A stretch of DNA of 64,000 nt. It comes from Candidatus Poribacteria bacterium (lineage in GTDB: Bacteria; Poribacteria; WGA-4E; WGA-3G). The translations under genes and the position numbers were made by a program. Positions 4,757 to 63,025 of the stretch are shown in pieces. The DNA is taken from positions 2,794,904 through 2,858,903 of the forward strand of contig OZ243935.1 of the NCBI GenBank assembly GCA_965214045.1, in the 5' to 3' direction. How positions within the stretch are numbered: position 1 is the stretch's first letter; each line of letters opens with the position of its first letter. The notes beneath the pieces are model-generated. The model was given only the letters and a program-made list of their open reading frames with translations, ran no database searches and was not told the origin of the DNA.

Positions 4757-5800
4757 TTATTGCGCAGTTCGGACATTTACTTCTTGCAGGACTGCAACTG
4801 CACGCTGTGCCAATTCGGTCGTGGCATCACGCTTGACTGATCGGTTTAAGTGTAGGATGGCGCGTTCGTCCCCACCTCTCGCCAGCTCCAACGCTTCCTC
4901 AAACCCTTTGTTCCCGTAACTGAGATCCCTTGGCAGGACAGTCAGGTCACGATCTTTCCAATAATACTTCAACGCATCGGATTCCCAATTGCGGTAGACG
5001 TGTTCCCACGTAAGGGAGTTGAAGATGTTCAAGTGCGGTTCAAGCATGTGCTCAGCAATCGGGGCATCGGCAGCCTGATAGCGGTTGTCCAACGACACAC
5101 GAAGTCGATCCTCGGTCAAATTCGGGAGTGCCTTGTGAATGGTCAACGCAGGGAAGATGAGCGTATCGCCAACCTCATAATTCGTGGAATGCCATTCACC
5201 CAACAACTCGTCCTCATTAACGCACAGACTCCCAGCACCGAGCGAAAAGTGATGCTCCATGACTTTGTTAATCTTATGCGAACCCGGTAGGACAGCCAGA
5301 CCTCCCAACTCAATTGGACAATCTCCGATGGGTGCCCAACACGTATAGGTCTGGAAATTCCCTTGAAAGTGGACGAAGTCTTGGTGTATCGGTGTGGTGT
5401 GCGCCGTGTACTTAGGAAACCAGAGACGCGCAATTTTCTGTGGATGCGGTAGCACCTCTCTACCGACAATTTTCTCCACCATATCGACGACTTCGTGCCA
5501 GTGTCCGGAACGGTGAAACGCTTCTAACTTATACACCTCATGGTATACGTCTGTGTATTCGGGGTCACCCTCGGTACACTGGGTAGATACATCAGCAATG
5601 CCGTCCATCGGGTCGGTCCCCGCGACGAGCCAACCGCCTTCCTGCATCGTCGTTAGCATTTCTCGCCGCAACGCCCAGAGTTTGTCGGGATCTTGCAGCC
5701 TCTTGAAGAAGACATACCCTTCTTCCGATATCCGGTGACGTAATTCTTCCGGATCATTCATCGCATCGTTGGATACGCGAAGTTCTTTTAATGCCTCCAT
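4757..5800 (-). CDS. Phytanoyl-CoA dioxygenase family protein
   Basis: 347 aa. HQDFVHFQG...LPGSHK...TIHKALPN pattern (2-His-1-carboxylate plus C-terminal His) of PhyH-type oxygenases. Confidence 0.55.
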   Translation of the reverse strand: MEALKELRVSNDAMNDPEELRHRISEEGYVFFKRLQDPDKLWALRREMLTTMQEGGWLVAGTDPMDGIADVSTQCTEGDPEYTDVYHEVYKLEAFHRSGHWHEVVDMVEKIVGREVLPHPQKIARLWFPKYTAHTTPIHQDFVHFQGNFQTYTCWAPIGDCPIELGGLAVLPGSHKINKVMEHHFSLGAGSLCVNEDELLGEWHSTNYEVGDTLIFPALTIHKALPNLTEDRLRVSLDNRYQAADAPIAEHMLEPHLNIFNSLTWEHVYRNWESDALKYYWKDRDLTVLPRDLSYGNKGFEEALELARGGDERAILHLNRSVKRDATTELAQRAVAVLQEVNVRTAQ

Positions 5801-6976: not shown

Positions 6977-7849
6977 TTATTTCGTCCCTATCGCAAGAAT
7001 ATGCGCACTCATACCAAGGAGCGAAGGCTCTGTTTCGACTTTGCGAATCAGATCTAAAACGACAGAACGCAGATCCGGATCCGTCCAATAATTTTTAAAC
7101 GACTCAAAAAGCCATGCCGGTCCTTCCACAGCAAGTGTCGCCTGATGCTGAAAACCTGCTTCGATAACTTCGGAACCGAGTTCTTCCGGACGGTGAAGAT
7201 AGGCATCTGTAAAGTACTTGAGGGTGTCAGTGAGGTTACGATGGTAACCCGTTTCAAGGTCGTTTTGAACGATGTCTCTATGAACAGGATCCCTGAATCC
7301 TCCCTCAAAAAAACTGTCGAGTAGAGACGCAAAGCGTGAGATACCCGCGGCAACCATAACACCACCGTTTCGCAGGACACGATACGCTTCTTTGAGTGCC
7401 AACAACCGTTCACTTTTATCAATCAGATGATAGAGAGGTCCCAATAACAGAACGGTGTCCGCTGACATCGACGAAAAACGGAGTTCTCGTGCGTCGCCAA
7501 GCGATATGCTGGCGATCGGATGATCTATCTGTTGGTTTGAGGCTTCTTTCGCTTGTTCAATGTGTAAATCCACAGGATCTACGAGGTGGACCTCATAGCC
7601 TACTTTTGCTAACCAACAGGCATAGGGACCCGAACCGCCACCGATGTCCAAAACCACTGCCGGCGGTGGGGGCAAATAGCGTGTGGTGATCTCTTGGGTC
7701 CGTACAAATTCCAACTGACCTTCAGTATTAGTCGTAAGTCTTTCCGATTCTTGTGTCTGTCTATAGAATGAAAGAATCTCGTCTGAAGGTTGATACAATT
7801 TCTTATTCCTTCTGAAACCCATTATCGGGTCTGTTTCACCCATGCCCAC
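6977..7849 (-). CDS. Class I SAM-dependent methyltransferase
   Basis: 290 aa. Motif I VLDIGGGSGPYACWLAKVGYEVHLVDP. The start may be at an internal Met (overlaps the upstream gene by 28 nt as drawn). Confidence 0.6.
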   Translation of the reverse strand: MGMGETDPIMGFRRNKKLYQPSDEILSFYRQTQESERLTTNTEGQLEFVRTQEITTRYLPPPPAVVLDIGGGSGPYACWLAKVGYEVHLVDPVDLHIEQAKEASNQQIDHPIASISLGDARELRFSSMSADTVLLLGPLYHLIDKSERLLALKEAYRVLRNGGVMVAAGISRFASLLDSFFEGGFRDPVHRDIVQNDLETGYHRNLTDTLKYFTDAYLHRPEELGSEVIEAGFQHQATLAVEGPAWLFESFKNYWTDPDLRSVVLDLIRKVETEPSLLGMSAHILAIGTK

Positions 7850-8580
7850 GTAGTCGCCAGTTTATCTTCTGGGTCAACAGAAAGCGGTTCGAGATCTAAG
7901 ACGTTGGTAACATCAACGTAATTCGCCTTTCCAAACCCACCGTCACCATCGTTTCCGTTTTTGGTGTTATCGCTGGCATTGCCTTCATCGAAAGTGTAAT
8001 GTGCGTTTAAGCCCTGTTCATCGCCGTTGAGCACCTTCATCATGAACTCGTTGATTTCTTCTTCGGTCCGAGCGACTTCCCAGATACGGATTTCATCAAT
8101 CGACCCTGTACAAAACCAATTTTGACTATCACCGACACCGATATACAGTGAAGCGTCGGTTGCCGCTAATTCCTTTGCTCCAAAAGGTGCTGCACCCTTC
8201 TCTTCCCCATCAATATATGTTCGCATCTCTTTACCGTCCCAAACCCCAGCGACATGTTGCCATTTGTTGGGCTCCAATCCAGGGACATCAAGGATTTTTG
8301 TGCCAGGCCAGAGGACAAAACGTAATCCGTTTCCATTTTGGACAATCTCTGGAAAGATGTAATCCCTTTGACCGCCCCAGTCCTTTGCAAGACACTCACC
8401 GACGGGTTTGCTCATGTTCATCCATGCTTCTATCGTTATCGCTGTTTTCGGATTTAAGCTGTCACTGTTTGGGACTTCAATAGCCGTCGCCCCATCTAAC
8501 GCCAGTGCCATATTTTTCGCCCATAGTGTGCTGGGCACTGTCAGACTGATAACGAGGGTCATAAAAAATAAAACTCTCAT
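7822..8580 (-). CDS. Secreted LamG / concanavalin-A-like lectin domain protein with conserved C-terminal tail ...KLATTWAWVKQTR
   Basis: 252 aa. Signal peptide MRVLFFMTLVISLTVPSTLWA. LamG-like block (DEIRIWEVARTEEEINEF). C-terminal tail shared with 62249..63025 and 22503..25526. Confidence 0.5.
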   Translation of the reverse strand: MRVLFFMTLVISLTVPSTLWAKNMALALDGATAIEVPNSDSLNPKTAITIEAWMNMSKPVGECLAKDWGGQRDYIFPEIVQNGNGLRFVLWPGTKILDVPGLEPNKWQHVAGVWDGKEMRTYIDGEEKGAAPFGAKELAATDASLYIGVGDSQNWFCTGSIDEIRIWEVARTEEEINEFMMKVLNGDEQGLNAHYTFDEGNASDNTKNGNDGDGGFGKANYVDVTNVLDLEPLSVDPEDKLATTWAWVKQTR

Positions 8581-21500: not shown

Positions 21501-22257
21501 CTTCCTTTAGGTCTGTAATGGGGGTCTGGAAACTTGAAGCCTTCAGTTTGAAGGTCATCGCAGAGTCTGCCGAACCATCCTTGTTAACACTAATCGTGAT
21601 TCGCTCTTGATTGTAATGGTATCGTTTAGCGTCGAGTACGCGGGGTGCAAATTCCTCTTGTTCTATTCTTACTCGACTCCCTGCCTGAGCAGTGACCGGT
21701 CTGACATCATTCTCATCATTAAAATCACCATCTGCGGGGCTACTATTATCTACCCCCTCAACAGCATCTCTGTAGTAGTAAAGGGCAAGTCCGCTATTGT
21801 CGTAAGCATACTTACTGCTATCAGCAAATATGGCTGTGCTGTCTGGGGTTATATAATCACTGCCACGCTTTGCTCGTATAGGAGAAGCGTGACTCGTCGG
21901 AGCACGATCCTGTAAGGCACTGATGGTGGCAGTAGTCTCAGTATTTCGACGATCTACACCGTTCTTTGATGTGACAAGATACCCTTGGGCATCAATTCGC
22001 CGTGCCTCACCAGTTGTACCATCATCAATTAGCTTGTTATCACTGTTCCTGATAGGCGTGGTATTCGACCGAGTTCCGACAGTAAATGATATCTCAAACG
22101 GCCCGTCTGTTGCTGATTTCGTCTGGAGATCGCCAGATGTCTTCCTTAAAGGTAAGTGTTCTGCTTCTGCAACACCCTGCACACCCAACGCCAATACAAA
22201 TGCCATCAGCAGTCCGATATATCCCTTCCGTGTCAAAAATTGTGTCTTCACAATCAT
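18541..22257 (-). CDS. Giant secreted multidomain surface protein: Ig-like (Big) repeats, T/P-rich linker, YWTD-type beta-propeller repeats, two dockerin-type Ca-binding repeats, T9SS/FlgD-Ig-type C-terminal sorting domain
   Basis: 1238 aa. Signal peptide. Repeated ~90-aa Ig-like units (TGTYILTVSATGYTSRQVTF). Repeated (K/N)(V/L)YWT(D/E/N) blades. AKYDVNGDGTVDNMD and AKYDVNNDGTVNFLD. C-terminus LANYPNPFNPETWIPYEL...IYFYQLE. Confidence 0.7.
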   Translation of the reverse strand: MIVKTQFLTRKGYIGLLMAFVLALGVQGVAEAEHLPLRKTSGDLQTKSATDGPFEISFTVGTRSNTTPIRNSDNKLIDDGTTGEARRIDAQGYLVTSKNGVDRRNTETTATISALQDRAPTSHASPIRAKRGSDYITPDSTAIFADSSKYAYDNSGLALYYYRDAVEGVDNSSPADGDFNDENDVRPVTAQAGSRVRIEQEEFAPRVLDAKRYHYNQERITISVNKDGSADSAMTFKLKASSFQTPITDLKEDPIIDPNGLPRSVTLVCTPGGADTTGTYKVRITDATPLEDTPWTTVPSQRAYIEFTLYVVDENKNVTGIDAPDDDKYHGTEPYRIDHFFDLTGTDTSDTVLIQYEVISGPGTVFERTSDGAETPPGKFLARSKVARVFLSNKGVSVVRATVSGQDPNKKGAEISFTYTGSDRSGNAGSGGSGNEDDTPPPTNTISVSSTSLSGAPGSAQDITVGAGTATVRVQGSSGFTSAGGAVSGSGTVRTITLPRTAANYILTVSASGYTDRQISVTVEAPQALGTLTVSKDGAQTGLQQQILVRASSAPSRTVAFTVTRGGVRVGSGEILTTGSGRAIVSVPATGTYILTVSATGYTSRQVTFTAGATTTTTTDTTPDPTTPTTPTTTTPTVSEPSSLQIAGQSTRSGTANTALDAPLLVRVLDDDGDAVAETRVIFRVRTGQGRLSERGNGRAIALQTDTNGYARAPYTPISASSTVEAEASGVTRRVTFTITASGGAATPTTRDTDTGSDTISPVVHTAAAKRPPMLWVDNGAIYALVDTDVQRFAPTVDNALSLAIGGDTVYWTEKTGDSAGTINSAHLDGTGIKELKAIMAVPMGITVDTTANLLYWTNSRGRIQSLNADGSGRVENVLQNLTSPLDIGLAGGNVYWTHSNGGIGFASLKGQKQVRNISNGADAAGSLVIGGGKVYWTEETGENGGRIKSANLNGSGITDVASIFAVPIGIGLDSSRGKLFWTNSRGRIQSSSVDGSGVSNVVDGLGSPGDMVLSNSIAAPAATTTTTTTTTADNAKYDVNGDGTVDNMDAGLVSEAMGTSNAKYDVNNDGTVNFLDLLLVFDNRDEGAASAPTVLGMQLSAVQVDVLQEQIDLLIATGDRSPAAMRTLIYLQQLIATARPEQTQLLANYPNPFNPETWIPYELATDTDVRLTIYNAQGAVIRTLQLGHQSAGYYVGRDRAAYWDGRNALGEQVASGIYFYQLETDAMSLMRKMVILK

Positions 22258-22502: not shown

Positions 22503-25500
22503 CTACTCATTGGACGTTTTGAGTTCACCCCACGTGGCGGTGAGTTTGCCAGCAGCACCGATATGCCCTCTGAGGCGTGTGCCGTGGGTCAGCGTCTGAC
22601 GATTCCCATCGAGGGACACGTCTTCAATTTGGTAGTAGTATACGACATTGGGTTGCGCAGTGCTATCCGTGTAGGTATAGAACTGCTTCTCTGATGTTGT
22701 GCCAGCACCGGCGACCATTGTGGCATTGATGACTTGGAACTGTCCGTCGCGTTGCTGTGAACGCTTGATGAAGAATCCAGCGTTGTTCAGCTCTGACTGT
22801 GTGGACCAGGTAATCACCACTTGACCGGTCTCTGCGTTGCGCACCGGACGGAAGTGTGAGAGTTCAACGGGGAGTGCGCCACCGGCTCTGAAGCCCGGTG
22901 TACCGACATCGTTCATCGCACCGTAGTAACTGCTCGCCCGGACGTGTGTCGCTTGTGCGAAACTCGTATCGGAGGCGAGTGCCCAACTCTCCATCATTGC
23001 GCCGTCTTCTGGCTCCGCAGGACCGATAGAGACCGGAATGTGTCTACGGATAATAGAACTCCGTCCACCTTCATCACTCATCGGCAATGCCCAAGTAGCA
23101 GCACCATCAGCACCGAGGTTGCCTGCCATATCCGTGGCGGCTGTGTGAGCTGCCATGGCTTTCAAGTCAGACGCTTTCGCTGCGGCTTTCTGTGCTGCCG
23201 TTGCGGTTGCGGCGACGACTGTTGCCTTCGGAGCGGGGGGTGCGAGGACGATTTCAAACGCCATATCACTCAAGAGCGAGTAGCGGCGTTTCGTCACACC
23301 TGCGAGAATCAGTTCCGTCTGACCGGCTTGCCAGAGATTCAGAACCTGACCGCTCGCCGCAGGGACGTTATTCCGACCGATTTCCGTGACAACGAGGAGC
23401 GTTGACGGCGACTCATTCTGAGCACTCGGCATAATCTTCGTGCCTTCGGGGATCGTGAACATGATAGACGCACCGACAGAAACATCAGCATCTGCGACTG
23501 CGTTATTCACGGTCAACGTCCATCCGGAGAGATTGACCTCTTCCGTGCGGGAACCGTTGGAAATCTCAATCCACTGTGGCAGTGTGCCACCACCTGCGAA
23601 CATCACTTCACTGACATAGATAGCACCGACTGCTGGGACCATGACAGACGTATCCGCGGCTTTTGCGGCTGCGGCTGCATCTGCAGCGGCTTTCGCTTTT
23701 GCGGCGGCTTCCATCGCTGCCATTTCAGCAGGAGTCGTCTGATGGGCGGCTCCTGGTGTTCCGACACGGATACCTTGGATACCTAACTTGAAGTTGGCAC
23801 CCGGCGGCGTAGACGCCGTCCAACTCGAAGCCATTGTGCCGTCCGCGTATGCGCTTGTCGTCGCATCCATCACACGGCGCATCGAGACAATCGGCGTAAC
23901 AGGACCTGGAGCAACAGTGATCTCAATGTCTTCTTTTACTTCGAGAGGCGTGCCACTCGTCCCGCTTTGACCTTTACCCAGGATAGACCAATAAACATCC
24001 CTTGCGACTGCTGGGGCTGTGCCACCCGCAGCGACTGCGGCTGCAGCTATTGATGCTGCTGATGTTTTCGTACCGACACGGTCCTGGAGAACACCATCGG
24101 TATAGGACGCAGGCGGTGTCTCATTCGCGGCATAGAACCACAACTTCCATTTATTTTCACCAACAGCGATGGCGGTCGCAGTGCTATTCGCGATCTCTAT
24201 CCATTGACTCTTGGTAACAGGATTCAGACTCGAATCCGTGCCCCACATAATCTCACTGATATGGGCACTGCCTGCCGCCGTGCCATCATAAGAAACGAGA
24301 TCAATCGTCCCATTATTCAGAAGGAACGACTCTAAGTTCGGAACACTTCCAGAACCTCTGACATTGAATAACAATTGCGCATCTGACTGCTTGGCAGCGA
24401 TGTTCTCATCGTCTTTTTCATGAGAGGCGTTGATACCCGACCCAGCTTTATCTCTCGTCAGCAAGTAATAGCCATTCGCAGGAATCATCGCAGCTTCTTC
24501 GTGCCGTAAGGAAAGCGGAGTTCCGGCTGGTTTCGCTGCTGCTGCTGCTGCTGGATTGTTGGTCTTGACCATCAGAACATCTCTGCCTGCGACGAGAGCA
24601 CTGTCAGCCGCCCGAATATACATTTCTTGAGCACTACCAGCAGGAGGTTTCTCCATACCCGCAAAATCCGTGACTTTGATGGTAACATCCTTGGCACCTT
24701 CTGCCTTTGTTTTCAGAGTGACGAGATAGAGATGGACCATACCATCTCGCCAACTCGGAACACTCGCTTCCATCTCAATTCCGGCCTGGTTCGCATCCTG
24801 GGTTCTGTTAATAACCATTGGTGGCGTTACTGGCGATGCTAACTTAACAACCGAAGCAACAGTTGCGTTATCTCCAACGTCAATGAGGTCTTTGACAGCC
24901 TCTTTCGGTTTTTCGCTCAACAGCACATGAACCATAAATTCAGCGGAAGTGACCTCTGCGTAGGGTTCACCAACCCTTGCGATCTTCAAAACATCTGGTA
25001 GCAATGTGGGAGGGGTATTTTCAGCACCTGGATTTGCTGGATATAGATTAATAGTCGCCTTTAATTCGTTGCTCTTCTTATCCTTCAGTCTAATCGTGTC
25101 AGTAGCACCAATAGCCTTATCGGCTATGAACAACTCTAGAGAAGTTGTGCCTGCGTCGATAGTGTTAGGTGCAAACGTAAGGCTAACCATCTTAGTTTTA
25201 GAACCATCAACAGTAGGGGCCAATTTCTCAATGAATCCATTTTCACCATAAGCATTGACCGTAATTTCATCCGTAACCGTCACTGCCTCGGCGAAGTTGA
25301 GCGTCAACTCAAGTTCTGCCGTTGCATCGAACTCAAGTTGCAAGCCATCGGCATTGCCTATATCATTCATCATGTCAAGTGACACGCCGAAGTCCCCCGC
25401 TATTGCGGAAGGGGCGACAAAAGCCAAAGCAAGTATAGTGATTAAACTCATTAACGAAACTGTCATTTTCTTCGACAACATTCGTTTAATCTCCTTGTTC

Positions 25501-25526
25501 TTATGTGGAATAAAATTTTGAAACAT
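22503..25526 (-). CDS. Large secreted protein with two lamin-tail-domain-like (LTD) modules and a C-terminal beta-sandwich domain ending ...KLTATWGELKTSNE
   Basis: 1007 aa. Signal peptide. LTD-like blocks AHISEIMWG...QWIEIANST and IYVSEVMFAGGGTLPQWIEISNGSRTEEVNLSGWTL. C-terminal LPVELSHF...VITWSTQSELNNAGFFIKRS module. Confidence 0.55.
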   Translation of the reverse strand: MFQNFIPHKNKEIKRMLSKKMTVSLMSLITILALAFVAPSAIAGDFGVSLDMMNDIGNADGLQLEFDATAELELTLNFAEAVTVTDEITVNAYGENGFIEKLAPTVDGSKTKMVSLTFAPNTIDAGTTSLELFIADKAIGATDTIRLKDKKSNELKATINLYPANPGAENTPPTLLPDVLKIARVGEPYAEVTSAEFMVHVLLSEKPKEAVKDLIDVGDNATVASVVKLASPVTPPMVINRTQDANQAGIEMEASVPSWRDGMVHLYLVTLKTKAEGAKDVTIKVTDFAGMEKPPAGSAQEMYIRAADSALVAGRDVLMVKTNNPAAAAAAKPAGTPLSLRHEEAAMIPANGYYLLTRDKAGSGINASHEKDDENIAAKQSDAQLLFNVRGSGSVPNLESFLLNNGTIDLVSYDGTAAGSAHISEIMWGTDSSLNPVTKSQWIEIANSTATAIAVGENKWKLWFYAANETPPASYTDGVLQDRVGTKTSAASIAAAAVAAGGTAPAVARDVYWSILGKGQSGTSGTPLEVKEDIEITVAPGPVTPIVSMRRVMDATTSAYADGTMASSWTASTPPGANFKLGIQGIRVGTPGAAHQTTPAEMAAMEAAAKAKAAADAAAAAKAADTSVMVPAVGAIYVSEVMFAGGGTLPQWIEISNGSRTEEVNLSGWTLTVNNAVADADVSVGASIMFTIPEGTKIMPSAQNESPSTLLVVTEIGRNNVPAASGQVLNLWQAGQTELILAGVTKRRYSLLSDMAFEIVLAPPAPKATVVAATATAAQKAAAKASDLKAMAAHTAATDMAGNLGADGAATWALPMSDEGGRSSIIRRHIPVSIGPAEPEDGAMMESWALASDTSFAQATHVRASSYYGAMNDVGTPGFRAGGALPVELSHFRPVRNAETGQVVITWSTQSELNNAGFFIKRSQQRDGQFQVINATMVAGAGTTSEKQFYTYTDSTAQPNVVYYYQIEDVSLDGNRQTLTHGTRLRGHIGAAGKLTATWGELKTSNE

Positions 25527-27511: not shown

Positions 27512-28249
27512 TTAATTTTCTTCAGCTATAACATAAGGACGGTTGCCGATGGATGGCGGCTTCAACATCCGTTTCTGTTGCTCCGTTAACCCGTCGTATT
27601 TACTGATGTCGTAGTAGTTACCCGCCCACGCGGAGTGTCCAGGACTATATTTATAGAGCAATGACCGGCGTTGATGTTTTGCTGTCCACGGCATCGTCCC
27701 GTGAACGAGTGCTTCCGTGAAGAAGAGCACGTCTCCTGCTTCCAGTGCCGGTTGGACGACGTAGTGCGTTGAACGTTCAAATCGACGGACTTCCGATGGG
27801 ATTTCCCGGAGAAAGTTGCTCTTATGACTTCCCGGAATACAAGCGAAACCGCCCGCGCCTTCCGGTGCATCTGCCAAATTATAGGTCATCACGCATAACC
27901 CATTCCGCATAACCCCGTCTCGGTATTTGTACCAGTGATCGCCTTCGGGACCACCCGGTCTACCGCCATCTTCACCGCCATGTAATCCACCGCGTCCTTG
28001 TCCCGCTTCCAAGAAGATGGCGTAGTCGTGGTCGAGACGAACGTGCGGACCCAATAAGTCTATGAGATACGGCAGGATCTTCGGATGATCGATCAATCTC
28101 CTAAACGGATCACCCCAGAGACTTGGCGGTCCTTGACGTTCTGTATTATCGATAATCTCGTTCATTTCAGCGACTTCATCATCGGTCAAGACGTTCTTTA
28201 TGATAAGGTAGCCTTCAAGGTCTACTGTAAATTTTTCTTCACCAGTCAT
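27512..28249 (-). CDS. Phytanoyl-CoA dioxygenase family protein (tandem paralog 1)
   Basis: 245 aa. PhyH pattern (HVRLDHDY...IPGSHK...HGTMPW). ~80% identical to 28445..29179. Confidence 0.65.
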   Translation of the reverse strand: MTGEEKFTVDLEGYLIIKNVLTDDEVAEMNEIIDNTERQGPPSLWGDPFRRLIDHPKILPYLIDLLGPHVRLDHDYAIFLEAGQGRGGLHGGEDGGRPGGPEGDHWYKYRDGVMRNGLCVMTYNLADAPEGAGGFACIPGSHKSNFLREIPSEVRRFERSTHYVVQPALEAGDVLFFTEALVHGTMPWTAKHQRRSLLYKYSPGHSAWAGNYYDISKYDGLTEQQKRMLKPPSIGNRPYVIAEEN

Positions 28250-28444: not shown

Positions 28445-29179
28445 TCAATCTTCTTCTATCACGCGAGGACGGCGTCCGATGGATGGTGGCAACAACATCC
28501 GTTTCTGCTGCTCCGTCAACCCATTGTATTTGCTGATGTCGTAATAGTTCTCCGCCCATGAAGAGTGTCCGGGACTGTATTTATAGAGCACAGACCGACG
28601 TTCATGATCGGCTGTCCACGGCATCGTTCCGTGGATAAGTGCTTCTGTGAAAAAGATTACATCTCCCGCTTCAGCAGGCGGTTGGAGGACGTAGTGTGCC
28701 GGACGCTCGAATCGGCGGACTTCTGTAGGGATTTCCGGTCCAAAGTTGGTTTTATGGCTTCCGGGAATACAGGCGAACCCACCTGCACCTGCTGGCGCAT
28801 CTGCCAGATTATAGGTCATCACGGACAGTCCATTCCGCATAACCCCGTCTCGGTATTTGTACCAGTGATCGCCGACGTTTCCACCAGCGCGTCCACCGTC
28901 CTCACCACCGTGCAGTCCGCCGCGACCTTGCCCTTTCTCCATGAAGAGGGCATAGTCGTGGTCAAGTCGGACATACGGTCCGAGCAGTTCGATGAGATAG
29001 GGTAAGATTTTCGGGTGATCGATGAGCCGTTTGAACGGTTCACCCCAGAGACTCGGCGGTCCTTCGATATCTCCGTTGTCGATAATAGCGTTCATCTCAG
29101 CGATTTCATCGTCGGTCAGAACGTTCTTTATAACGAGATAGCCTTCGAGGTCTACCTGAAATTTTTCTTCACCAGTCAT
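28445..29179 (-). CDS. Phytanoyl-CoA dioxygenase family protein (tandem paralog 2)
   Basis: 244 aa. Collinear paralog of 27512..28249. Confidence 0.65.
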   Translation of the reverse strand: MTGEEKFQVDLEGYLVIKNVLTDDEIAEMNAIIDNGDIEGPPSLWGEPFKRLIDHPKILPYLIELLGPYVRLDHDYALFMEKGQGRGGLHGGEDGGRAGGNVGDHWYKYRDGVMRNGLSVMTYNLADAPAGAGGFACIPGSHKTNFGPEIPTEVRRFERPAHYVLQPPAEAGDVIFFTEALIHGTMPWTADHERRSVLYKYSPGHSSWAENYYDISKYNGLTEQQKRMLLPPSIGRRPRVIEED

Positions 29180-56652: not shown

Positions 56653-58182
56653 TTGATGGTGGACGGGGTTGGAACGATGCACAAAAACGCAATAATTAAA
56701 AAAATTCCTGTGCAGATTGGGTTGCTCGCGCTATTTTTCTGCGTTTACCATCTATTCTTGTATTACAGCATGCGCGAGAGGTCTATCAATCTGGGTGCGG
56801 TGCGATTTGAAAAACACATTTTGCCCCTTTATGCCGAACCGAGTTTTGACGTGAGTTGGTGGATATTGCCTGCCCTCGTGATATGTATCGGTTTTCTATA
56901 TATTTGTCAGAGGTGCCTGCTTTCGGGGACATCCACTCGTCGCTTACTCTGGATAGCGGTTGCTTGCTTCATTGCCATTAACATGAGTGTTGCCCAAATT
57001 GATGGCTACCGAGAGATTGAACGAGATGGCGAAACGGAGCGGGTCTTGACCCTTTTAGAGCCGTATACGCGGACTTCGTTGGAGTATTACGGCGATGTGC
57101 CGCGGGTTGACGAACTCGGGATCCGTAGGTTTCTCAGGGATTATAGTAAACCGGAAGTGTTTAACACACTCTCAGGACACACCCGCACCCATCCGCCGGG
57201 CGGTGTGCTTTTCTTATGGCATGTTAGCGGACTCTTCGGTTACAATCTCATATCGGCATCGTTGGTTACAATTTTCTTTACTGCCATCACAGTTATACCG
57301 ATCTACCACCTCGGCGAACATCTCTACGGTGAAAAGGTCGGTCGGTACGCGCTGCTCCTTTTTCTCATCACCCCCAACTTTGTGATGTTCACCGGCACGT
57401 CAATGGACGGTCCCTTCAGTGTCTTCCCGATCCTGAGTGTTTACCTGTTTTATAGAGCACGAGATCGGGAAACCATACCGGACCAAAGATGGCATGAATT
57501 CCGTCCTTATAGCTTACTAACGGGGCTTACGCTTGCGCTTGGGATGTTCATGACCTATGCGACGGTCGTTGTGGGGGTCTTTTTGTGTGTTGTCGCCTTA
57601 CTGGAACGGAAGCAATTCGTGCAGTATCTGAAGGTCTTGCTATTCGCGGCTTCGGGATTTATCGGATTTTACCTATTGCTTTTCGTCCTGACCGGATTCC
57701 GTCCAATCGATGCACTCTGGGCGGCTATCAAGAAAGATGAGATGGGTATGGGGACAGGTTATGAAAGCATTGAGCGTTATTTTCACCTGAGTTTCGCGAA
57801 CCTGTTTGCATTCCTCATCGGCGTGGGACTACCGATAACGACCCTCTGGCTGCGGGAACTCGTTGCATCAGTGAAAGAATGGCGGCAGAATACTCAGGCA
57901 TCAGTGCCGGAGCGAAATGGCAGTCGTATCCCTTGGATACTCCGCCATGATGACGCGTTGGACAGTTTCATCGTTGGTTTCCTAATCACGCTCCTCTTCT
58001 TCACATTCTCGACACTATTTACGATGGAGGTCGAGCGGATATGGATTTTCATGGTACCGTTTTTCGTCATTCCGGTCGCTAAACACCTCACAGCGCGTCC
58101 GATGTCGGATTTCTATTGGGCCGCCGGTATACTCGTTGGGCAACTGATCTTGGGAGAAGCCCTGCTTTATACGTATTGGTAG
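56653..58182 (+). CDS. Polytopic integral membrane protein, possibly a GT-C-fold glycosyltransferase (PMT/ArnT-like)
   Basis: 509 aa. ~11-13 hydrophobic helices. Located beside GT4, deacetylase and uppP genes. Family not confirmed. Confidence 0.35.
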   Translation: MMVDGVGTMHKNAIIKKIPVQIGLLALFFCVYHLFLYYSMRERSINLGAVRFEKHILPLYAEPSFDVSWWILPALVICIGFLYICQRCLLSGTSTRRLLWIAVACFIAINMSVAQIDGYREIERDGETERVLTLLEPYTRTSLEYYGDVPRVDELGIRRFLRDYSKPEVFNTLSGHTRTHPPGGVLFLWHVSGLFGYNLISASLVTIFFTAITVIPIYHLGEHLYGEKVGRYALLLFLITPNFVMFTGTSMDGPFSVFPILSVYLFYRARDRETIPDQRWHEFRPYSLLTGLTLALGMFMTYATVVVGVFLCVVALLERKQFVQYLKVLLFAASGFIGFYLLLFVLTGFRPIDALWAAIKKDEMGMGTGYESIERYFHLSFANLFAFLIGVGLPITTLWLRELVASVKEWRQNTQASVPERNGSRIPWILRHDDALDSFIVGFLITLLFFTFSTLFTMEVERIWIFMVPFFVIPVAKHLTARPMSDFYWAAGILVGQLILGEALLYTYW

Positions 58183-58464
58183 GAAGTGGTAGTCCGTCGC
58201 CAGTTCTCGGTTTTCACCTCACAAAGGGTGATTCTTCGTAGTGTAGGAAACTGTTGGTATCCTGCACACCCCTTGCTTACGGGCGGTAGCGGGTGGCACA
58301 ACCTAACAGATTATGCTACAATAGGTTCAAAACCGTTAGCCCGTAAGCGTAGCGGAGGGCGGATTTGAGGGGCGCACGTCAAAGTTGAGACGTCCGTTGT
58401 TCCCCCGCAAGGTAAAATTAAAAATCCGCAAGGTAAAATTAAAGTTCTTTATGTCATTGATTCC

Positions 58465-59538
58465 ATGACAAAGGACGGTGCCGAATCGCAACTGCTCAAG
58501 ACATTAGATCGATTGCCACCGGAGCAGTATGAAGTGTCCGTCGTATTAAGCCGCGCCGAAGGAGAACGCGTCAGAGAACTCGCCGCACTACCGTGTGTGC
58601 GGGAGGTCGCAACACTCACAAGTGACAGCAGACGCATGAAGTTACTCGAAAAAGCGTTTGCACTCGGTGGGATCATCAACGCTTTTGAACCCGACATTGT
58701 GCATAGCTGGTTATGGTATTCCAATTTCCTCTGCGGACTCTCCCGTAAATTCGGGTTGTGGCGACAGATTCCGTTCATCGCTTCACAGCGCGGCGACTAC
58801 CACGCCAGGTACGGCAAGTTTCGGCTCTATCTTACCGAAAAACTCATCTACAATACCGCCGATGTCCTTCTGACGAATTCAGCGCAGATCCAACGGCATC
58901 TCCACCAGCGGTATCCAAGCAAAAACATTGTGAGCATCCCGAATTTATTGGAATTACCCGCCGAGGAATGGTCTCAGCAACGCCGAGATCACACCAGAGA
59001 GAAGTTAATAATAAGCGTCGGACGGCTCGCACCGGAAAAGGGGCATCGGTATCTGATTGAGGCGTTAAATTTGTTGGACCGAGAAGATGTCGCATGGCGA
59101 TGCACGTTTCTCGGTGAGGGAGAGTTAGAAGCGGAACTCCGTGCGCTTGTGGCAGAATACGGACTCTCGGAACGGGTGACGTTTCCGGGGTTTTGTGAGG
59201 ATGTTTTTTCTCTGCTTTTGACGGTAGATGTCTTTGTGCTTCCGTCGCTGCACGAGAGTTCACCAAACGCATTGATTGAAGCGATGGGGATCGGAATGCC
59301 GTGCATCGCCTCGGATGTCGGGGGCATCGTGGATCTGATAGAAGATGAGAAGAACGGTATCCGGGTGCCGCCACAGGATCCGACGGCGTTAGCAGCTGCC
59401 CTGCATCGGGTGTTGACGGAACTGGACTTCGCGAGTGAATTGGGTAAAAATGCCCGCGCAACAATTCAGGAGAAGTTTGACAGTACGGTATCTGTTCGGA
59501 AATTGGAAGAAGTTTATGCAAAAGTTATCAGTTCGTAG
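58465..59538 (+). CDS. Glycosyltransferase family 4 (GT-B, group 1)
   Basis: 357 aa from the ATG. C-terminal E-x7-E region LPSLHESSPNALIEAMGIGMPCIASDVGGI. The in-frame upstream sequence encodes KIKVLYVIDS (conserved GT4 N-terminal strand) without a canonical start codon. Confidence 0.65.
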   Translation: MTKDGAESQLLKTLDRLPPEQYEVSVVLSRAEGERVRELAALPCVREVATLTSDSRRMKLLEKAFALGGIINAFEPDIVHSWLWYSNFLCGLSRKFGLWRQIPFIASQRGDYHARYGKFRLYLTEKLIYNTADVLLTNSAQIQRHLHQRYPSKNIVSIPNLLELPAEEWSQQRRDHTREKLIISVGRLAPEKGHRYLIEALNLLDREDVAWRCTFLGEGELEAELRALVAEYGLSERVTFPGFCEDVFSLLLTVDVFVLPSLHESSPNALIEAMGIGMPCIASDVGGIVDLIEDEKNGIRVPPQDPTALAAALHRVLTELDFASELGKNARATIQEKFDSTVSVRKLEEVYAKVISS

Positions 59539-59593
59539 GTCGGGTAGAACGACAGCAAAACCCGACAACTCTATCCTGAAAACCATAAAATAG

Positions 59594-60505
59594 ATGCGTA
59601 ATTTTATTAAGAATGTAATCGCAATTTTTATTTATGTGTCGTGGATACCGATTCTCATTCGGGAGTGGGTCTGTCGGCATCGGGTGGCGATCCTCCTGTA
59701 TCACGACCCGAAACCAGCGATTTTCCTGAAACATATATCCTACCTCTCGCGCCACTACACGATTATCTCACTGGATACCCTCGTCGCTGCTGTTCATCGA
59801 CAGGATTTCTCAGAGATCCCCGCAAAAAGCGTTGTGATTACGATCGACGATGGACACGCTGGCAATATCGCACTCCTGCCGATTTTCAAGCAGTACCGCA
59901 TTCATCCAACGCTCTACGTCTGCACGCAGATTATTGACACGCACCGACATTTCTGGTTCAAGATAGACGGACAATCTAAAGCAGAGAAGGAAAGACTGAA
60001 AAGGCTCCCAAATGCAGAACGGTTGATGCACCTCAAGCGGACATCTAACTTTGAACCTGAAAAGGTGTATCCAGACAGACAGGCACTCACCAGCGCAGAA
60101 ATGAAAGAGATGGCAGCGAGTGCCGATTTTCAACCGCATACTCGATTCCATCCGATCCTACCGCGCTGTACAGAAGCCGAATGTGAGAAAGAAATACTTG
60201 GAAGCAAAACGGACTTAGAAACGCTTTTCGGGGTTGCGTGTTCGCATTTCAGTTATCCGAACGGCGATTACACAGAACGCGAGATTGAGATGGTAAAAGC
60301 CGGTGGATTCCGTTCAGCACGCACGACGGATATCGGATGGAACACGTTGGAAACGTCGCCGTATCAACTAAAGGCGATTCCGATCACCGATGACGCTGGA
60401 CTGATTCTCTTCCGTTCAGAACTCACAACGATTCCGCAACGGCTCAGCAGATGGGTGAATTCTTTATTATATGGCAGTCAGCAATCAGTAAGAGAATCTT
60501 CTTAA
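59594..60505 (+). CDS. Polysaccharide deacetylase (CE4) family protein
   Basis: 303 aa. NodB-like motif VVITIDDGHAGN. TM anchor at the N-terminus. Confidence 0.6.
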   Translation: MRNFIKNVIAIFIYVSWIPILIREWVCRHRVAILLYHDPKPAIFLKHISYLSRHYTIISLDTLVAAVHRQDFSEIPAKSVVITIDDGHAGNIALLPIFKQYRIHPTLYVCTQIIDTHRHFWFKIDGQSKAEKERLKRLPNAERLMHLKRTSNFEPEKVYPDRQALTSAEMKEMAASADFQPHTRFHPILPRCTEAECEKEILGSKTDLETLFGVACSHFSYPNGDYTEREIEMVKAGGFRSARTTDIGWNTLETSPYQLKAIPITDDAGLILFRSELTTIPQRLSRWVNSLLYGSQQSVRESS

Positions 60506-60614
60506 ACGAAAACCTCTTACCTGACTGCTGAAAGGGTTTTCGTAGAAAACCCGACCCGACGGAAACCGACCGCCAAGTACCTGACGGCTAATTGCTATTA
60601 TACGGAGATGTCGC

Positions 60615-61298
60615 GTGACAGAATGGCACCGTGCCTACATCCAGAATGCTTACCGCGAATTAGAAAATGGCACAACGCGGAGGCAACTCGATACTTTGAA
60701 GATTAATACTGCCGGTAAGAGGGTATTGGATGTCGGGTGTGGACCGGGGAATCTGCTTGTTGCCCTCTCCACCGATGCTCCAGAACTCCTTGTCGGTATC
60801 GATGTGGATGCGATTTTCTTGGCGACCGGACGTTCTCAAATTGGGAAGTTCATGGAGCCGTCTTCTACAGAGCCTGCCTTGCTACATGCGGCACTTCCAA
60901 ACCTACCTTTTGCAGATGAATCTTTTGATCTCGTCACCTGTTTCCTCGTCATGCCGCATGTCCCTGACGATAGGATTGCCTTAACTGAGCTTGCACGGGT
61001 TTTGAAACCCGGAGGCACGCTCGCGATCTCTGGACACGGATTCGGGTTCCCGCTTCGGTATCTCAAACGTTTCAAGCTGAAACCGTTACAAATGTATCTC
61101 GCCAGTCTGATTTATGGATGCACTGGGAAAAAGTGGATTCGGAACACATTGCAAAACGATAGGAAAGTCTGTGAAACCTTAGAGAGTATCGGTGTGGTGC
61201 CAGAGATACGACACTACAACAGAAAGGTGCTTGGATGCGTCGCAACTTACTGGATCAAAGCGATTAAGAGTGAAGTTAACCCCAAAGCGACGCAATAG
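60615..61298 (+). CDS. Class I SAM-dependent methyltransferase
   Basis: 227 aa. Motif I VLDVGCGPGNLL. Motif III region VLKPGGTLAIS. Confidence 0.6.
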   Translation: MTEWHRAYIQNAYRELENGTTRRQLDTLKINTAGKRVLDVGCGPGNLLVALSTDAPELLVGIDVDAIFLATGRSQIGKFMEPSSTEPALLHAALPNLPFADESFDLVTCFLVMPHVPDDRIALTELARVLKPGGTLAISGHGFGFPLRYLKRFKLKPLQMYLASLIYGCTGKKWIRNTLQNDRKVCETLESIGVVPEIRHYNRKVLGCVATYWIKAIKSEVNPKATQ

Positions 61299-62086
61299 TA
61301 GGAGAAAGCTGAGAATTTGCCTCGGTTGAGTATGACTAACAGGAACCGCAACGCGATATAACCGACGATAAACGAGGCGAGCATTCCAGTTCCCACGATG
61401 TGAAACGGGATCTCGGTGTCTCCGATGTCCCGGATTTTGAGTGCAACCGCACCGAGTATCGCAGGAATTGAGAGGAGGAAGGAGTATTCCGCGGCAGTTT
61501 TTGCAGGAATCCCTAAAAATAGTGCCAACGAGATTGTCGTGCCGGAACGAGATATACCCGGTGTGATTGCGCATCCTTGTGCGATTCCGATGAGCGGTGC
61601 GTGCCACGTTTTCAACTTTTCGGCTGGGTCGTCAGGAGTATCCGTTTTCTTTCTGCGGAGTCGCGGTAATTGGAGGATAACACCGGTGAGGATTAGCATG
61701 ATGCTCACGAGGCGTACCTCATCGAAAAAAGACTCTAATTGGGTCTTGAAGACCACTGCGATGATTCCCGTTGGAATAGAGCCCAGAAGTATCAGCCATA
61801 TAAACTTCAGTTCTGCCGACGTGTTGAGCGTTGCCTTCGGTTGTTGCCAGAATTGTGTATTTCCCAGTGCAGAAAGTCCACCGATGACTAACCTCCCTAT
61901 TGCGGCACGATATACGACGAGCACAGCGGCTAATGTTCCAACGTGAAGCATCACATCGAAAAAGACGAGAGGTTCCTTTAATCCGAGAAATTGTTGCGCC
62001 AGGACAAGGTGTCCTGAACTACTGACGGGTAGGAATTCGGTTAAACCTTGTAAAATCCCAAGAAGGATTGCTTCAAGAAATGTCAT
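61247..62086 (-). CDS. uppP: Undecaprenyl-diphosphate phosphatase
   Basis: 279 aa. MTFLEAILLGILQGLTEFLPVSSSGHLVL N-terminus and PGISRSGTTIS motif are diagnostic of UppP/BacA. Confidence 0.8.
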   Translation of the reverse strand: MTFLEAILLGILQGLTEFLPVSSSGHLVLAQQFLGLKEPLVFFDVMLHVGTLAAVLVVYRAAIGRLVIGGLSALGNTQFWQQPKATLNTSAELKFIWLILLGSIPTGIIAVVFKTQLESFFDEVRLVSIMLILTGVILQLPRLRRKKTDTPDDPAEKLKTWHAPLIGIAQGCAITPGISRSGTTISLALFLGIPAKTAAEYSFLLSIPAILGAVALKIRDIGDTEIPFHIVGTGMLASFIVGYIALRFLLVILNRGKFSAFSYYCVALGLTSLLIALIQ

Positions 62087-62248: not shown

Positions 62249-63025
62249 ATGCGTAGAAATTTATTCCTGTTGGGGCTGACAGCAATCTGTGTATTTGCAG
62301 TGAGTCTCTCAGATGCTTTCGAGGAAGAAGATATCCTCGTCTATTACTCTTTTGACAAGCTGAGCGGTAATAAGGTCACTGATGATTCTGGCAACGGAAA
62401 TGACGCTGAATTGGTCGGAAAGGGCTCGCCTGTTGATGGGGCATTCAATAAAGCCATCCAGCTCAACGGTGGTGTCGTTGTCATGGAACAGAATGACTTT
62501 ATCGTTCCAATCGGTGAGAAGACAGAGATTACAATGGAAGCGTGGTTTTACCTGAACCAGCACGCCTCGTATGATGGGATTATCTCGATTGAAGCCGCTG
62601 CCGGTGGCTGTTGTGAATTTCGGACGATGGTCAATCCCGCTTTCAACCCGTTTTGGGATGCTGGGCATCACGCCGATAAAAGTCTCGGCAACTTCAAATT
62701 TGAATTAAAAGAGTGGTACCACTACGTTTTGGTTGCCGATGGGAAAGATGGCAAAATCTATGTCAACGGTAAATTTATCGGTGAACAGCCAGAGAATTTT
62801 AAGTGGCCCAAGTTCAAAGAGGCAGCGATCTACATCGGTGCTGGCGAAAATCCAAACCTCCATAAAGTCGAAGATGCAATCATCGATGAGGTCGTCATAT
62901 ACGCGGCGGCGTTGACTGAAGAAGAGGTGAGGGAAAATATGGAACTGAGCATACCGGTGGTGCTCGCCGTTGAAGCCCGCGATAAGTTGGCGGTGACATG
63001 GGGAGAACTGAAAACCGATTTCTAA
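62249..63025 (+). CDS. Secreted LamG / concanavalin-A-like lectin domain protein ending ...KLAVTWGELKTDF
   Basis: 258 aa. Signal peptide MRRNLFLLGLTAICVFAVSLSDA. LamG-like block (EWYHYVLVADGKDGKIYVNGKFIGEQ). RBS AAGGAGG. Confidence 0.5.
   Translation: MRRNLFLLGLTAICVFAVSLSDAFEEEDILVYYSFDKLSGNKVTDDSGNGNDAELVGKGSPVDGAFNKAIQLNGGVVVMEQNDFIVPIGEKTEITMEAWFYLNQHASYDGIISIEAAAGGCCEFRTMVNPAFNPFWDAGHHADKSLGNFKFELKEWYHYVLVADGKDGKIYVNGKFIGEQPENFKWPKFKEAAIYIGAGENPNLHKVEDAIIDEVVIYAAALTEEEVRENMELSIPVVLAVEARDKLAVTWGELKTDF

What the first reader, a model, noticed from the sequence alone, without database searches (positions are those of the whole stretch)
62249..63025. Conserved short C-terminal tail KL-x-x-TWGELKT shared by three unrelated secreted proteins: candidate novel sorting/anchoring tag
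LamG-like protein 7822..8580 ends DPEDKLATTWAWVKQTR. LamG-like protein 62249..63025 ends EARDKLAVTWGELKTDF. The 1007-aa lamin-tail-domain protein 22503..25526 ends AAGKLTATWGELKTSNE.

All three have N-terminal signal peptides and otherwise differ in size and domains. The tail has no hydrophobic helix, so it is unlike PEP-CTERM / LPXTG / IPTL-type signals. It is far shorter than the ~80-aa T9SS CTD present on the other giant protein.

A short C-terminal recognition tag (secretion, cell-surface attachment or a protease-processing site) is the simplest explanation.
Basis: seen in the sequence. Interest (0 to 1): 0.7.

Follow-up and report, generated by a model that had tools for sequence, protein, structure and literature searches.

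The report
Phylum-wide C-terminal tag on secreted proteins
A roughly 20-residue tail (…L-A-V-E-[A/P]-x-G-K-L-x-x-T-W-G-x-L-K-xxx-end) sits at the very end of hundreds of otherwise unrelated exported proteins in the uncultured phylum Poribacteria; it appears to be an undescribed address label or docking peg whose receptor is unknown.

Summary
All three ORFs end in K-L-x-x-T-W-[G/A]-x-[L/V]-K plus 3-4 residues (3 DNA-pattern matches against 0.01 expected). A back-translated scan of reference genomes hit 93 Poribacteria-labelled loci and 7 unclassified loci, every one at a C-terminus. 13 of the 16 hits in other named taxa were internal and look like chance.

A position-blind profile search of 1.84 billion proteins found 240 clusters at E<=0.001. 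In 137 of 139 motif-bearing new hits the motif lies 1-8 residues from the end (mode 3). Synonymous codons vary freely, so the peptide is what is conserved.

Carriers have signal-peptide-like N-termini (77 of 83) and unrelated bodies: LamG, DUF1080, LTD+Fn3 giants, PD40 and Kelch propellers, CBM9, NPCBM.

AlphaFold2 leaves the tail disordered beside confident domains in two contexts, so it is not a LamG strand. It has no TM helix or Arg cluster, matches no Pfam or NCBIfam model, and was not found in the literature searched. In one orthologue a type I dockerin replaces it.

Best reading (about 0.55): a lineage-specific tag, recognised in trans, for surface docking or sorting of Sec-exported proteins. 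The partner is unidentified and the function untested.

The parts
62249..63025 (+). Carrier 1: 258-aa exported LamG (Laminin_G_3) protein. Signal-peptide-like N-terminus MRRNLFLLGLTAICVFAVSLSDA. LamG at aa 91-227.
   Evidence: orthologues are Ca. Poribacteria LamG proteins; AF2: core pLDDT>90
62963..63022 (+). Tail of carrier 1: LAVEARD-KLAVTWGELK-TDF (aa 239-258). The core decamer is at 62984..63013.
   Evidence: Invariant V241, K246, L247, W251 and K255 across 84 orthologues. pLDDT<50 for residues 244-258.
7822..8580 (-). Carrier 2: 252-aa exported LamG protein (Laminin_G_3 at aa 30-177) with a long linker.
7825..7884 (-). Tail of carrier 2: LSVDPED-KLATTWAWVK-QTR, a variant with A-W-V in place of G-E-L. 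The core decamer is at 7834..7863.
   Evidence: The same variant occurs in orthologue fragment P0135.
22503..25526 (-). Carrier 3: LTD (lamin-tail-domain) giant, 1007 aa as listed. The true start is probably the internal MLSKKMTVSL..., as in its homologues.
   Evidence: homologues start MLSKKM...
22572..22883 (-). Fn3-like beta-sandwich domain (LPVxLSxFRP...W.T.SELNNAGF...YYYQIEDVS) immediately before the tail of carrier 3.
   Evidence: pLDDT 80-92; Foldseek hits to Fn3 domains, E about 4e-3
22506..22565 (-). Tail of carrier 3: HIGAAG-KLTATWGELK-TSNE. The core decamer is at 22518..22547.
   Evidence: pLDDT<50 for residues 106-126 of the 126-aa construct

Best explanation
The tail is a portable linear C-terminal tag specific to the phylum Poribacteria. 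Its consensus is h-[A/S]-V-[E/S]-[A/P]-x-[G/D]-K-L-[A/T]-[T/V]-T-W-G-x-[L/I]-K followed by 1-8 (usually 3) variable residues and the free C-terminus.

Proposed mechanism:
1. Carriers are exported by Sec through their N-terminal signal peptides (inferred from sequence).
2. In the cell envelope the tail, flexible and exposed at the end of a linker, is bound in trans by a shared but unidentified poribacterial receptor. This could be a scaffold or anchor protein, an outer-membrane translocon or a processing enzyme.
3. The receptor docks or sorts this subset of lectin-like, adhesin-like and propeller proteins to a common destination, most likely the cell surface.

Shown: portability, strict C-terminal position, purifying selection on the peptide, association with signal-peptide-like N-termini, lineage restriction, structural independence from the carrier domain, and one natural replacement by a dockerin. 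Inferred: the docking or sorting function, the destination, and whether the tail is cleaved.
For: Position: 106 of 119 strict-pattern hits lie <=20 aa from a stop, 78 of them at exactly 13. In the position-blind HMM search, 137 of 139 motif-bearing hits have 1-8 residues after the final K.

Lineage: all 93 Poribacteria-labelled loci and all 7 unclassified loci are C-terminal, while 13 of 16 loci from other taxa are internal. Every named cluster member is Ca. Poribacteria, including a hot-spring MAG.

Selection on the peptide: Leu uses 6 codons and Thr and Gly use 4 each at the motif positions. The motif carries about 48 bits over 17 positions, with K, W and K at 100%. The tail is kept in all full-length orthologues down to 63% identity and in 116 of 120 homologues retrieved with a tail-less query.

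Portability: at least 15 BLAST-unrelated carrier clusters. Pfam finds LTD, Laminin_G_3, DUF1080, PD40, Kelch, CBM9, NPCBM, He_PIG, Big_9 and fn3.

Export: 77 of 83 carriers have signal-peptide-like N-termini.

Exposed linear motif: AF2 gives pLDDT<50 for the tail beside confident domains in two unrelated contexts.

Docking analogy: in orthologue P0391 a Pfam-significant type I dockerin (30 bits against a cutoff of 22.9) replaces the tail directly after the conserved ...ELAV junction, and this is a genuine chromosomal gene.

Subset marking: in the window a Met-zincin with a signal peptide lacks the tail, and a neighbouring protein carries a T9SS-type CTD instead.

The tail meets 5 of Haft's 7 attributes of small C-terminal sorting signals.
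Against: No receptor, sortase or translocon candidate was found. No non-carrier gene recurs next to different carrier families. There are no localisation or proteomic data.

Signal peptides were called with a simple hydropathy heuristic, not a trained predictor. AF2 disorder is what a trans-binding motif would show, but it is also what an uninformative prediction looks like. The dockerin swap is a single case.

The tail lacks the TM helix and basic cluster of all characterised small sorting signals, so there is no mechanistic precedent for how a soluble 20-mer would be sorted.
Confidence: 0.55

Rival explanations
1. Self-assembly element. The tail folds only on oligomerisation, for example as a short Trp-centred beta-hairpin (K-L-T-T-T / W-G / E-L-K-x-x-x) comparable to a foldon. 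It would zip carriers together into homo- or hetero-oligomers or a surface lattice, with no dedicated receptor.
For: There is a fixed length of 3 residues after the final K in 70% of tails, which would complete a symmetric hairpin. W and G are invariant at the putative turn. The tail is disordered in the AF2 monomer. Carriers often occur in tandem arrays. The comparison with foldon rests on my own knowledge, not on a tool result.
Against: No amphipathic strand pattern is seen in the consensus (strand moment at the 11th percentile of shuffles). AF2 predicts no hairpin. Very different carrier sizes (250 to 1950 aa) make a common lattice less obvious. The dockerin swap points to heterotypic docking.
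Confidence: 0.12
2. C-terminal propeptide or processing-and-quality-control signal. The tail is recognised and removed by a periplasmic C-terminal processing protease (S41/Ctp-like), or marks the protein for controlled turnover. The conserved V-E-[A/P]-x-[G/D]|K junction would be the cleavage site, and the tail would have no addressing role.
For: The junction V(-5), [A/P](-3), [G/D](-1), K(0) is strongly conserved. The distance to the free C-terminus is constrained. The tail is flexible and accessible. That Ctp-type proteases recognise C-termini rests on my own knowledge.
Against: It does not explain why only lectin-, adhesin- and propeller-type exported proteins carry the tail. It does not explain why a docking module can replace it. 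About 48 bits of conservation is much more than typical protease sites carry.
Confidence: 0.1
3. Direct membrane or LPS anchor. The tail itself inserts at a membrane interface through its Trp and Leu residues, like the C-terminal amphipathic helix of PBP5, and tethers carriers without a protein receptor.
For: There is an invariant Trp flanked by Lys residues, with L-x-x-x-W-x-x-L spacing. Carriers are envelope proteins.
Against: The consensus is not amphipathic (helical moment at the 2nd percentile of shuffles). It is hydrophilic overall (mean KD -1.0). Near-invariant sequence is atypical of lipid-binding helices, which conserve character rather than residues (the latter point is from my own knowledge).
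Confidence: 0.07
4. Glycosylation or lipid-glycan attachment sequon. The conserved T-T-W is modified by a periplasm-facing GT-C enzyme, so the tag is a modification site.
For: There are conserved Thr residues next to an invariant Trp. The flagged gene lies in conserved synteny with a PMT_2 GT-C glycosyltransferase, a GT4 enzyme, a polysaccharide deacetylase and UppP.
Against: The synteny is seen only for this one orthologous carrier family among closely related genomes. Other carrier families have no such neighbours. Position 3 is V as often as T, and position 4 tolerates L, I, A, E and Q.
Confidence: 0.06
5. Not a feature: either chance similarity or the last strand of the LamG fold.
For: Two of the three window carriers are LamG proteins.
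Against: There are 3 matches against 0.01 expected in the window and hundreds of C-terminal occurrences on non-LamG folds. The tail lies outside the LamG model and is unpacked in AF2.
Confidence: 0.01

Closest known systems
Small tripartite C-terminal sorting signals (LPXTG/sortase, PEP-CTERM/exosortase, GlyGly-CTERM/rhombosortase, MYXO-CTERM/myxosortase, PGF-CTERM/archaeosortase), as summarised by Haft, bioRxiv 10.1101/2023.06.07.544157
   Same: Extreme C-terminal position, many copies per genome, a near-invariant signature motif, N-terminal signal peptides on carriers, carriers otherwise unrelated, lineage-restricted distribution, and similar length (about 20-30 aa).
   Different: There is no hydrophobic transmembrane segment and no terminal Arg cluster. 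An intramembrane or membrane-anchored sortase-type mechanism therefore cannot apply as known. There is no HMM match.
T9SS C-terminal domain (type A CTD, TIGR04183 / PF18962)
   Same: A C-terminal signal without a TM segment on Sec-exported surface or secreted proteins of a diderm. It is found on the same kinds of carriers (LTD, LamG, propellers). A CTD protein is the immediate neighbour of carrier 3.
   Different: The CTD is a folded beta-sandwich of about 70-100 aa. This tail is about 20 aa, predicted disordered, and matches no CTD model. T9SS structural genes were reported as not found in Poribacteria (PMC3909097).
Type I dockerin modules (cohesin-dockerin docking)
   Same: A C-terminal appendage on diverse exported proteins that mediates non-covalent docking to a common scaffold. 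A dockerin replaces the tail at the same junction in orthologue P0391. Dockerins are common on poribacterial exported proteins.
   Different: A dockerin is a folded Ca2+-binding duplicated EF-hand-like module of about 60-70 aa. The tail has no such repeats, is three times shorter, and has no sequence similarity to it.
Cargo-targeting peptides of encapsulins and bacterial microcompartments
   Same: Short (about 10-20 aa) conserved terminal peptides on a flexible linker, attached to unrelated cargo and recognised in trans by one shell protein. There is a superficial resemblance of T-W-G-E-L-K to the encapsulin ...G-S-L-K motif (recalled from my own knowledge).
   Different: Those cargos are cytoplasmic enzymes without signal peptides. 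Here 77 of 83 carriers have signal-peptide-like N-termini and lectin, adhesin or propeller bodies.

Membership tests
Small C-terminal sorting signals (Haft's seven attributes) | 1. [quoted passage not shown] | tested here: met
   K-to-stop distance is 10-20 aa in 106 of 119 hits, with a mode of 13. 137 of 139 profile hits have 1-8 residues after the motif.
Small C-terminal sorting signals (Haft's seven attributes) | 2. [quoted passage not shown] | tested here: met
   There are 3 in this 64-kb window. There are also tandem paralogues. A whole-genome count was not possible.
Small C-terminal sorting signals (Haft's seven attributes) | 3. [quoted passage not shown] | tested here: met
   K0 100%, L1 91%, T4 90%, W5 100%, G6 91%, K9 100% (n=325).
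Small C-terminal sorting signals (Haft's seven attributes) | 4. Strongly hydrophobic segment long enough for a TM helix | tested here: not met
   The maximum KD over 15-aa windows is <=1.15, and the mean KD of the last 13 residues is -0.1 to -1.0.
Small C-terminal sorting signals (Haft's seven attributes) | 5. Cluster of basic (Arg) residues at the end | tested here: not met
   The post-motif residues are mostly S, T, Q, R, F and D, usually 3 in number, with no Arg cluster.
Small C-terminal sorting signals (Haft's seven attributes) | 6. Most carriers have an N-terminal signal peptide | tested here: met
   77 of 83 complete carriers have a hydrophobic signal-peptide-like N-terminus (hydropathy heuristic). 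The same pattern holds in the profile hits.
Small C-terminal sorting signals (Haft's seven attributes) | 7. Carriers include many pairs with no other homology | tested here: met
   At least 15 BLAST-unrelated clusters. The Pfam families are distinct.
Small C-terminal sorting signals | A cognate processing enzyme co-distributed with the signal | not testable with these tools
   Whole-genome phylogenetic profiling is not available. The neighbourhood analysis found no candidate.
T9SS type A CTD | Match to TIGR04183 / PF18962 and a folded beta-sandwich of about 70-100 aa | tested here: not met
   There are no hits even at E<=10. The tail is about 20 aa and has pLDDT<50.
T9SS type A CTD | T9SS machinery (PorV, Sov/SprA, PorU and others) in the genome | not testable with these tools
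   Kamke et al. 2014 reported none in poribacterial single-cell genomes. This was not re-examined here.
LamG / ConA-like fold (tail as its terminal strand) | The tail lies within the domain model and packs into the sandwich | tested here: not met
   The Pfam boundaries end 30-75 residues upstream. The tail is unpacked in the AF2 model and is present on non-LamG folds.
Outer-membrane protein beta-signal | Terminal aromatic residue on a beta-barrel protein | tested here: not met
   The last residue is F, Y or W in about 34% of tails only. The carriers are soluble lectin, propeller and Ig-like domains.
Dockerin type I | Duplicated Ca2+-binding repeat matching PF00404 | tested here: not met
   There is no Pfam hit for the tails. 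By contrast the replacement module in P0391 scores 30 bits against a cutoff of 22.9.
Encapsulin / BMC targeting peptides | Cytoplasmic cargo lacking signal peptides | tested here: not met
   Signal-peptide-like N-termini occur on 77 of 83 carriers.

The most novel reading that the evidence does not exclude
The tail is the recognition signal of a previously unknown protein-sorting or surface-attachment pathway specific to Poribacteria. A soluble linear C-terminal peptide would be read in the periplasm or at the outer membrane by machinery unrelated to sortase-type enzymes and to T9SS. In that case the tag defines the phylum's surface and secreted 'interactome' of lectin- and adhesin-like proteins.
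Probability: 0.3. Interest if true: 0.85.

Novelty: new variant of a known kind. Interest (0 to 1): 0.66.

Why it matters
Poribacteria are abundant, uncultured symbionts of marine sponges. Their many lectin-like, propeller and 'eukaryote-like' exported proteins are the prime candidates for mediating contact with the host.

A single, easily searchable 20-residue tag that marks a large, coherent subset of these proteins gives three things. First, it is a sequence-only way to define that subset in any poribacterial genome or metagenome. Second, it is a handle (phylogenetic profiling, peptide pull-downs) for finding the unknown machinery that reads it. This bears on an open point in the literature, namely how poribacterial proteins with C-terminal sorting domains are exported when no T9SS genes are found (PMC3909097). 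Third, it may be the first example of a short, TM-less C-terminal sorting or docking peptide in a diderm, which would widen the known repertoire of such signals.

The core also forms an ideal tryptic peptide (L-x-x-T-W-G-x-L-K), so existing sponge metaproteomes could show directly whether it is retained or cleaved.

Tried and rejected
1. LamG terminal strand: rejected.

2. DNA-level repeat or mobile cassette: rejected, because synonymous sites vary freely and the three window copies differ.

3. Known models: tail-only and 126-aa C-terminal queries against NCBIfam and Pfam at E<=10 gave nothing.

4. Literature: string searches for TWGELK and variants, Poribacteria with sorting, sortase or PEP-CTERM, and Poribacteria with T9SS or dockerin gave no description of the tag.

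5. Tail as a mimic of the first beta-hairpin of the Fn3-like 'LPVxLSxF...W.T.SEL' domain: hhalign probability was 0.8% with only 7 columns aligned, so there is no support.

6. Amphipathic helix or strand: the consensus moment lies below most shuffles.

7. Partner by gene neighbourhood: clustering 795 ORFs from 116 loci gave no non-carrier family recurring beside different carrier families. The apparent 'family 1' was a single-linkage merge of beta-propeller proteins.

The 45-aa profile then returned only short gene-call fragments, which were useful for motif variants but not as a census.

9. Cross-phylum 'choice-of-anchor' test with a tail-less CBM9 body: the best 120 hits were all close poribacterial relatives, so no comparison with other phyla was possible. 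The search did yield the 116 of 120 retention figure and the dockerin swap.

Full report
OBSERVATION

The three ORFs are present as described. 62249..63025 (+) encodes a 258-aa protein. 7822..8580 (-) encodes a 252-aa protein. 22503..25526 (-) encodes a 1007-aa protein. They end ...DKLAVTWGELKTDF...DKLATTWAWVKQTR and ...GKLTATWGELKTSNE.

A six-frame scan finds K-L-x-x-T-W-[G/A] in long ORFs only at these three places, always 13-14 residues before the stop. As a DNA pattern there are 3 matches against 0.01 expected, and none of 100 dinucleotide-preserving shuffles reaches 3.

Pfam places Laminin_G_3 at residues 91-227 and 30-177 of the two small proteins, and LTD in the large one, so the tail lies outside those domain models.

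DOES IT RECUR?

Homologues of the flagged protein are all Candidatus Poribacteria LamG proteins.

Of the 119 instances, 106 lie 10-20 codons before a stop, and 78 lie at exactly 13.

Cross-tabulating with the record titles:
- All 93 Poribacteria-labelled loci and all 7 'uncultured bacterium' loci are C-terminal.
- 13 of the 16 loci from other named taxa are internal or far from a stop, as chance would give.
- The remaining three are a 14-codon ORF, an ambiguous Parcubacteria case, and a 3.4-kb contig in a Bathyarchaeia bin whose content looks poribacterial.

In the same roughly 900 kb of fetched DNA, a relaxed form of the motif occurs at the C-terminus of 34 further, unseeded ORFs. Only 7 internal matches occur in 337,336 residues of six-frame ORFs, which predicts about 0.6 at C-termini. 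Carriers therefore often lie in tandem.

POSITION-BLIND TEST

A 23-position profile of the tail alone was run with HMMER against 1.84 billion cluster representatives. It gave 240 proteins at E<=0.001. Of the 142 new ones listed, 139 contain the motif, and in 137 it is followed by only 1-8 residues, with a mode of 3. The profile has no knowledge of protein ends, so this establishes C-terminal placement without bias. The cluster members that carry a source name are all Candidatus Poribacteria, including a hot-spring MAG.

WHAT IS CONSERVED, AND AT WHAT LEVEL

At the motif positions Leu uses all six codons, and Thr and Gly use four each. The peptide is therefore under selection, not the DNA.

From 325 non-redundant tails the consensus is L(-7) A V(-5, 88%) E [A/P](-3, 95%) x [G/D] K(100%) L(91%) [A/T] [T/V] T(90%) W(100%) G(91%) x [L/I](94%) K(100%). 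This amounts to about 48 bits. Exactly three variable residues follow in 70% of tails.

Within the orthologous LamG family the tail is kept in every full-length member down to 63% identity, and V241, K246, L247, W251 and K255 are invariant. In a second family, retrieved with a query from which the tail had been removed, 116 of 120 homologues carry it, and three of the other four are truncated.

WHO CARRIES IT

With signal peptide and tail trimmed off, complete carriers fall into at least 15 BLAST-unrelated clusters. Pfam finds the following among 60 full-length profile hits: LTD (28), Laminin_G_3 (14), PD40 and Kelch beta-propellers, 3-keto-disaccharide hydrolase/DUF1080, CBM9, He_PIG, Big_9, fn3 and CHB_HEX_C. 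Among the cluster representatives it also finds NPCBM and a weak M12-like metalloprotease match, and several have no Pfam match at all.

77 of 83 complete carriers have a hydrophobic, signal-peptide-like N-terminus by a hydropathy heuristic. The exceptions are fragments or the chance hit.

Not every exported protein carries the tail. In the window a Met-zincin with a signal peptide has none, and the dockerin/CTD protein uses a different C-terminal module.

STRUCTURE

AlphaFold2 was run on the 258-aa protein with an 84-sequence alignment. It gives a confident LamG sandwich (pLDDT>90) and a helix at 224-240. The tail (244-258) is left at pLDDT<50 and does not pack on the domain.

The last 126 residues of the LTD protein give a confident Fn3-like sandwich, with Foldseek hits to Fn3 domains. 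The tail there is again below pLDDT 50.

The tail has no TM-grade hydrophobicity. Its consensus is not amphipathic as either helix or strand. It behaves as an exposed linear motif.

IS IT KNOWN?

No Pfam or NCBIfam model matches the tail, even at E<=10. Full-text searches for the motif strings, and for Poribacteria together with sorting-signal terms, found no description.

Kamke et al. 2014 noted only TIGR04183-type CTDs on poribacterial proteins. They stated that no T9SS structural genes were found and that the export route remained to be revealed (PMC3909097).

Against Haft's seven attributes of small C-terminal sorting signals (10.1101/2023.06.07.544157), the tail meets five: C-terminal position, multiple copies per genome, invariant signature, signal peptides, and unrelated carriers. 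It fails the two mechanistic ones, the TM helix and the Arg cluster. It is therefore not a member of the sortase, exosortase, rhombosortase or myxosortase class. It is also not a T9SS CTD, an OMP beta-signal, a dockerin, or an encapsulin/BMC targeting peptide (see the membership table).

MECHANISM

The pattern is an invariant linear peptide on a flexible linker, at a fixed short distance from the free C-terminus, on many unrelated Sec-exported lectin-, adhesin- and propeller-type proteins of one phylum. The best account of this pattern is recognition in trans by a shared envelope component.

One natural experiment supports a docking role. In orthologue P0391 the tail is replaced by a type I dockerin (30 bits, Pfam cutoff 22.9) directly after the conserved ...ELAV junction. 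P0391 is a genuine gene seen on independent contigs of a poribacterial chromosome. Dockerins are frequent on other poribacterial exported proteins.

I therefore favour a surface-docking or sorting tag, with confidence of about 0.55. Whether it is retained (non-covalent docking) or cleaved (sorting or transpeptidation) cannot be decided here. The rivals are self-assembly via a Trp-centred hairpin, a C-terminal propeptide or quality-control signal, direct lipid binding, and a glycosylation sequon. Each is less well supported, and each is listed with its refuting test.

No receptor candidate emerged from gene neighbourhoods. The idea that the tail mimics the first hairpin of the preceding Fn3-like domain found no support.

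VERDICT

This is a real, strongly conserved, lineage-specific C-terminal tag that appears undescribed. Functionally it resembles known sorting and docking appendages, but it differs from all of them in architecture. Its function is inferred, not shown.

Noticed in passing
L092:2391-4445(+) and 4775-5137(+); L061:191-1780(+) and 2071-2433(+); also L014, L042, L069, L106, L107 (loci syntenic with the flagged gene; not inside the window): Exported proteins with an N-terminal dockerin-like repeat pair end at an in-frame TGA exactly where the first Cys of a thioredoxin CxxC motif should be (…VVEFYTDW-TGA-PFC…). The thioredoxin fold continues in frame after the TGA in 10 of 10 cases checked. These are probably selenocysteine (UxxC) thioredoxin-like exported proteins. 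No SECIS search was done.
   Followed up: partly
window 18541-22257 (-): A 1238-aa exported protein next to the LTD carrier combines a type I dockerin (aa 1038-1081) with a T9SS-type CTD (FlgD_ig/Por_Secre_tail, aa 1150-1224; ends …GIYFYQL…RKMVILK). Similar CTD proteins flank LTD carriers in L028 and L049. The literature reports no T9SS genes in Poribacteria.
   Followed up: partly
window 56656-62086 (genes upstream of the flagged ORF): The flagged LamG carrier lies in conserved synteny with envelope-glycan genes: a PMT_2 GT-C glycosyltransferase (56656-58182), a GT4 enzyme (58465-59538), a polysaccharide deacetylase (59594-60505) and uppP/bacA (61247-62086, -). The synteny recurs in 7-19 orthologous loci. 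This may simply be shared gene order among close relatives.
   Followed up: partly
window 7822-7849 (-): The last codons of carrier 2's tail overlap the start of the downstream methyltransferase gene (6977..7843/7849) by 22-28 nt. This carrier also has the most divergent tail (TWAWVK in place of TWGELK).
   Followed up: no
P0197 (222 aa, from the exhaustive profile search): This PD40-type protein has one internal and one terminal copy of the tail. It looks like two tandem paralogues fused after loss of a stop codon, and it is the only such case among 142 hits.
   Followed up: partly
L084 (uncultured bacterium SRP200020_co5_420, 359-kb contig): A divergent lineage has tails that end directly in …WGELKW or …WGQLKW (a single Trp after the final K) on PD40-like proteins with Arg-rich signal peptides. 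It may be a deep-branching relative that uses a variant of the tag.
   Followed up: no
window 27512-28249 and 28445-29179 (-), 130-885 (+): There are tandem PhyH-like (phytanoyl-CoA dioxygenase-type) paralogues, a family noted as expanded in Poribacteria (PMC3909097 supplementary list titles). They were judged from N-terminal sequence only and were not scanned.
   Followed up: no
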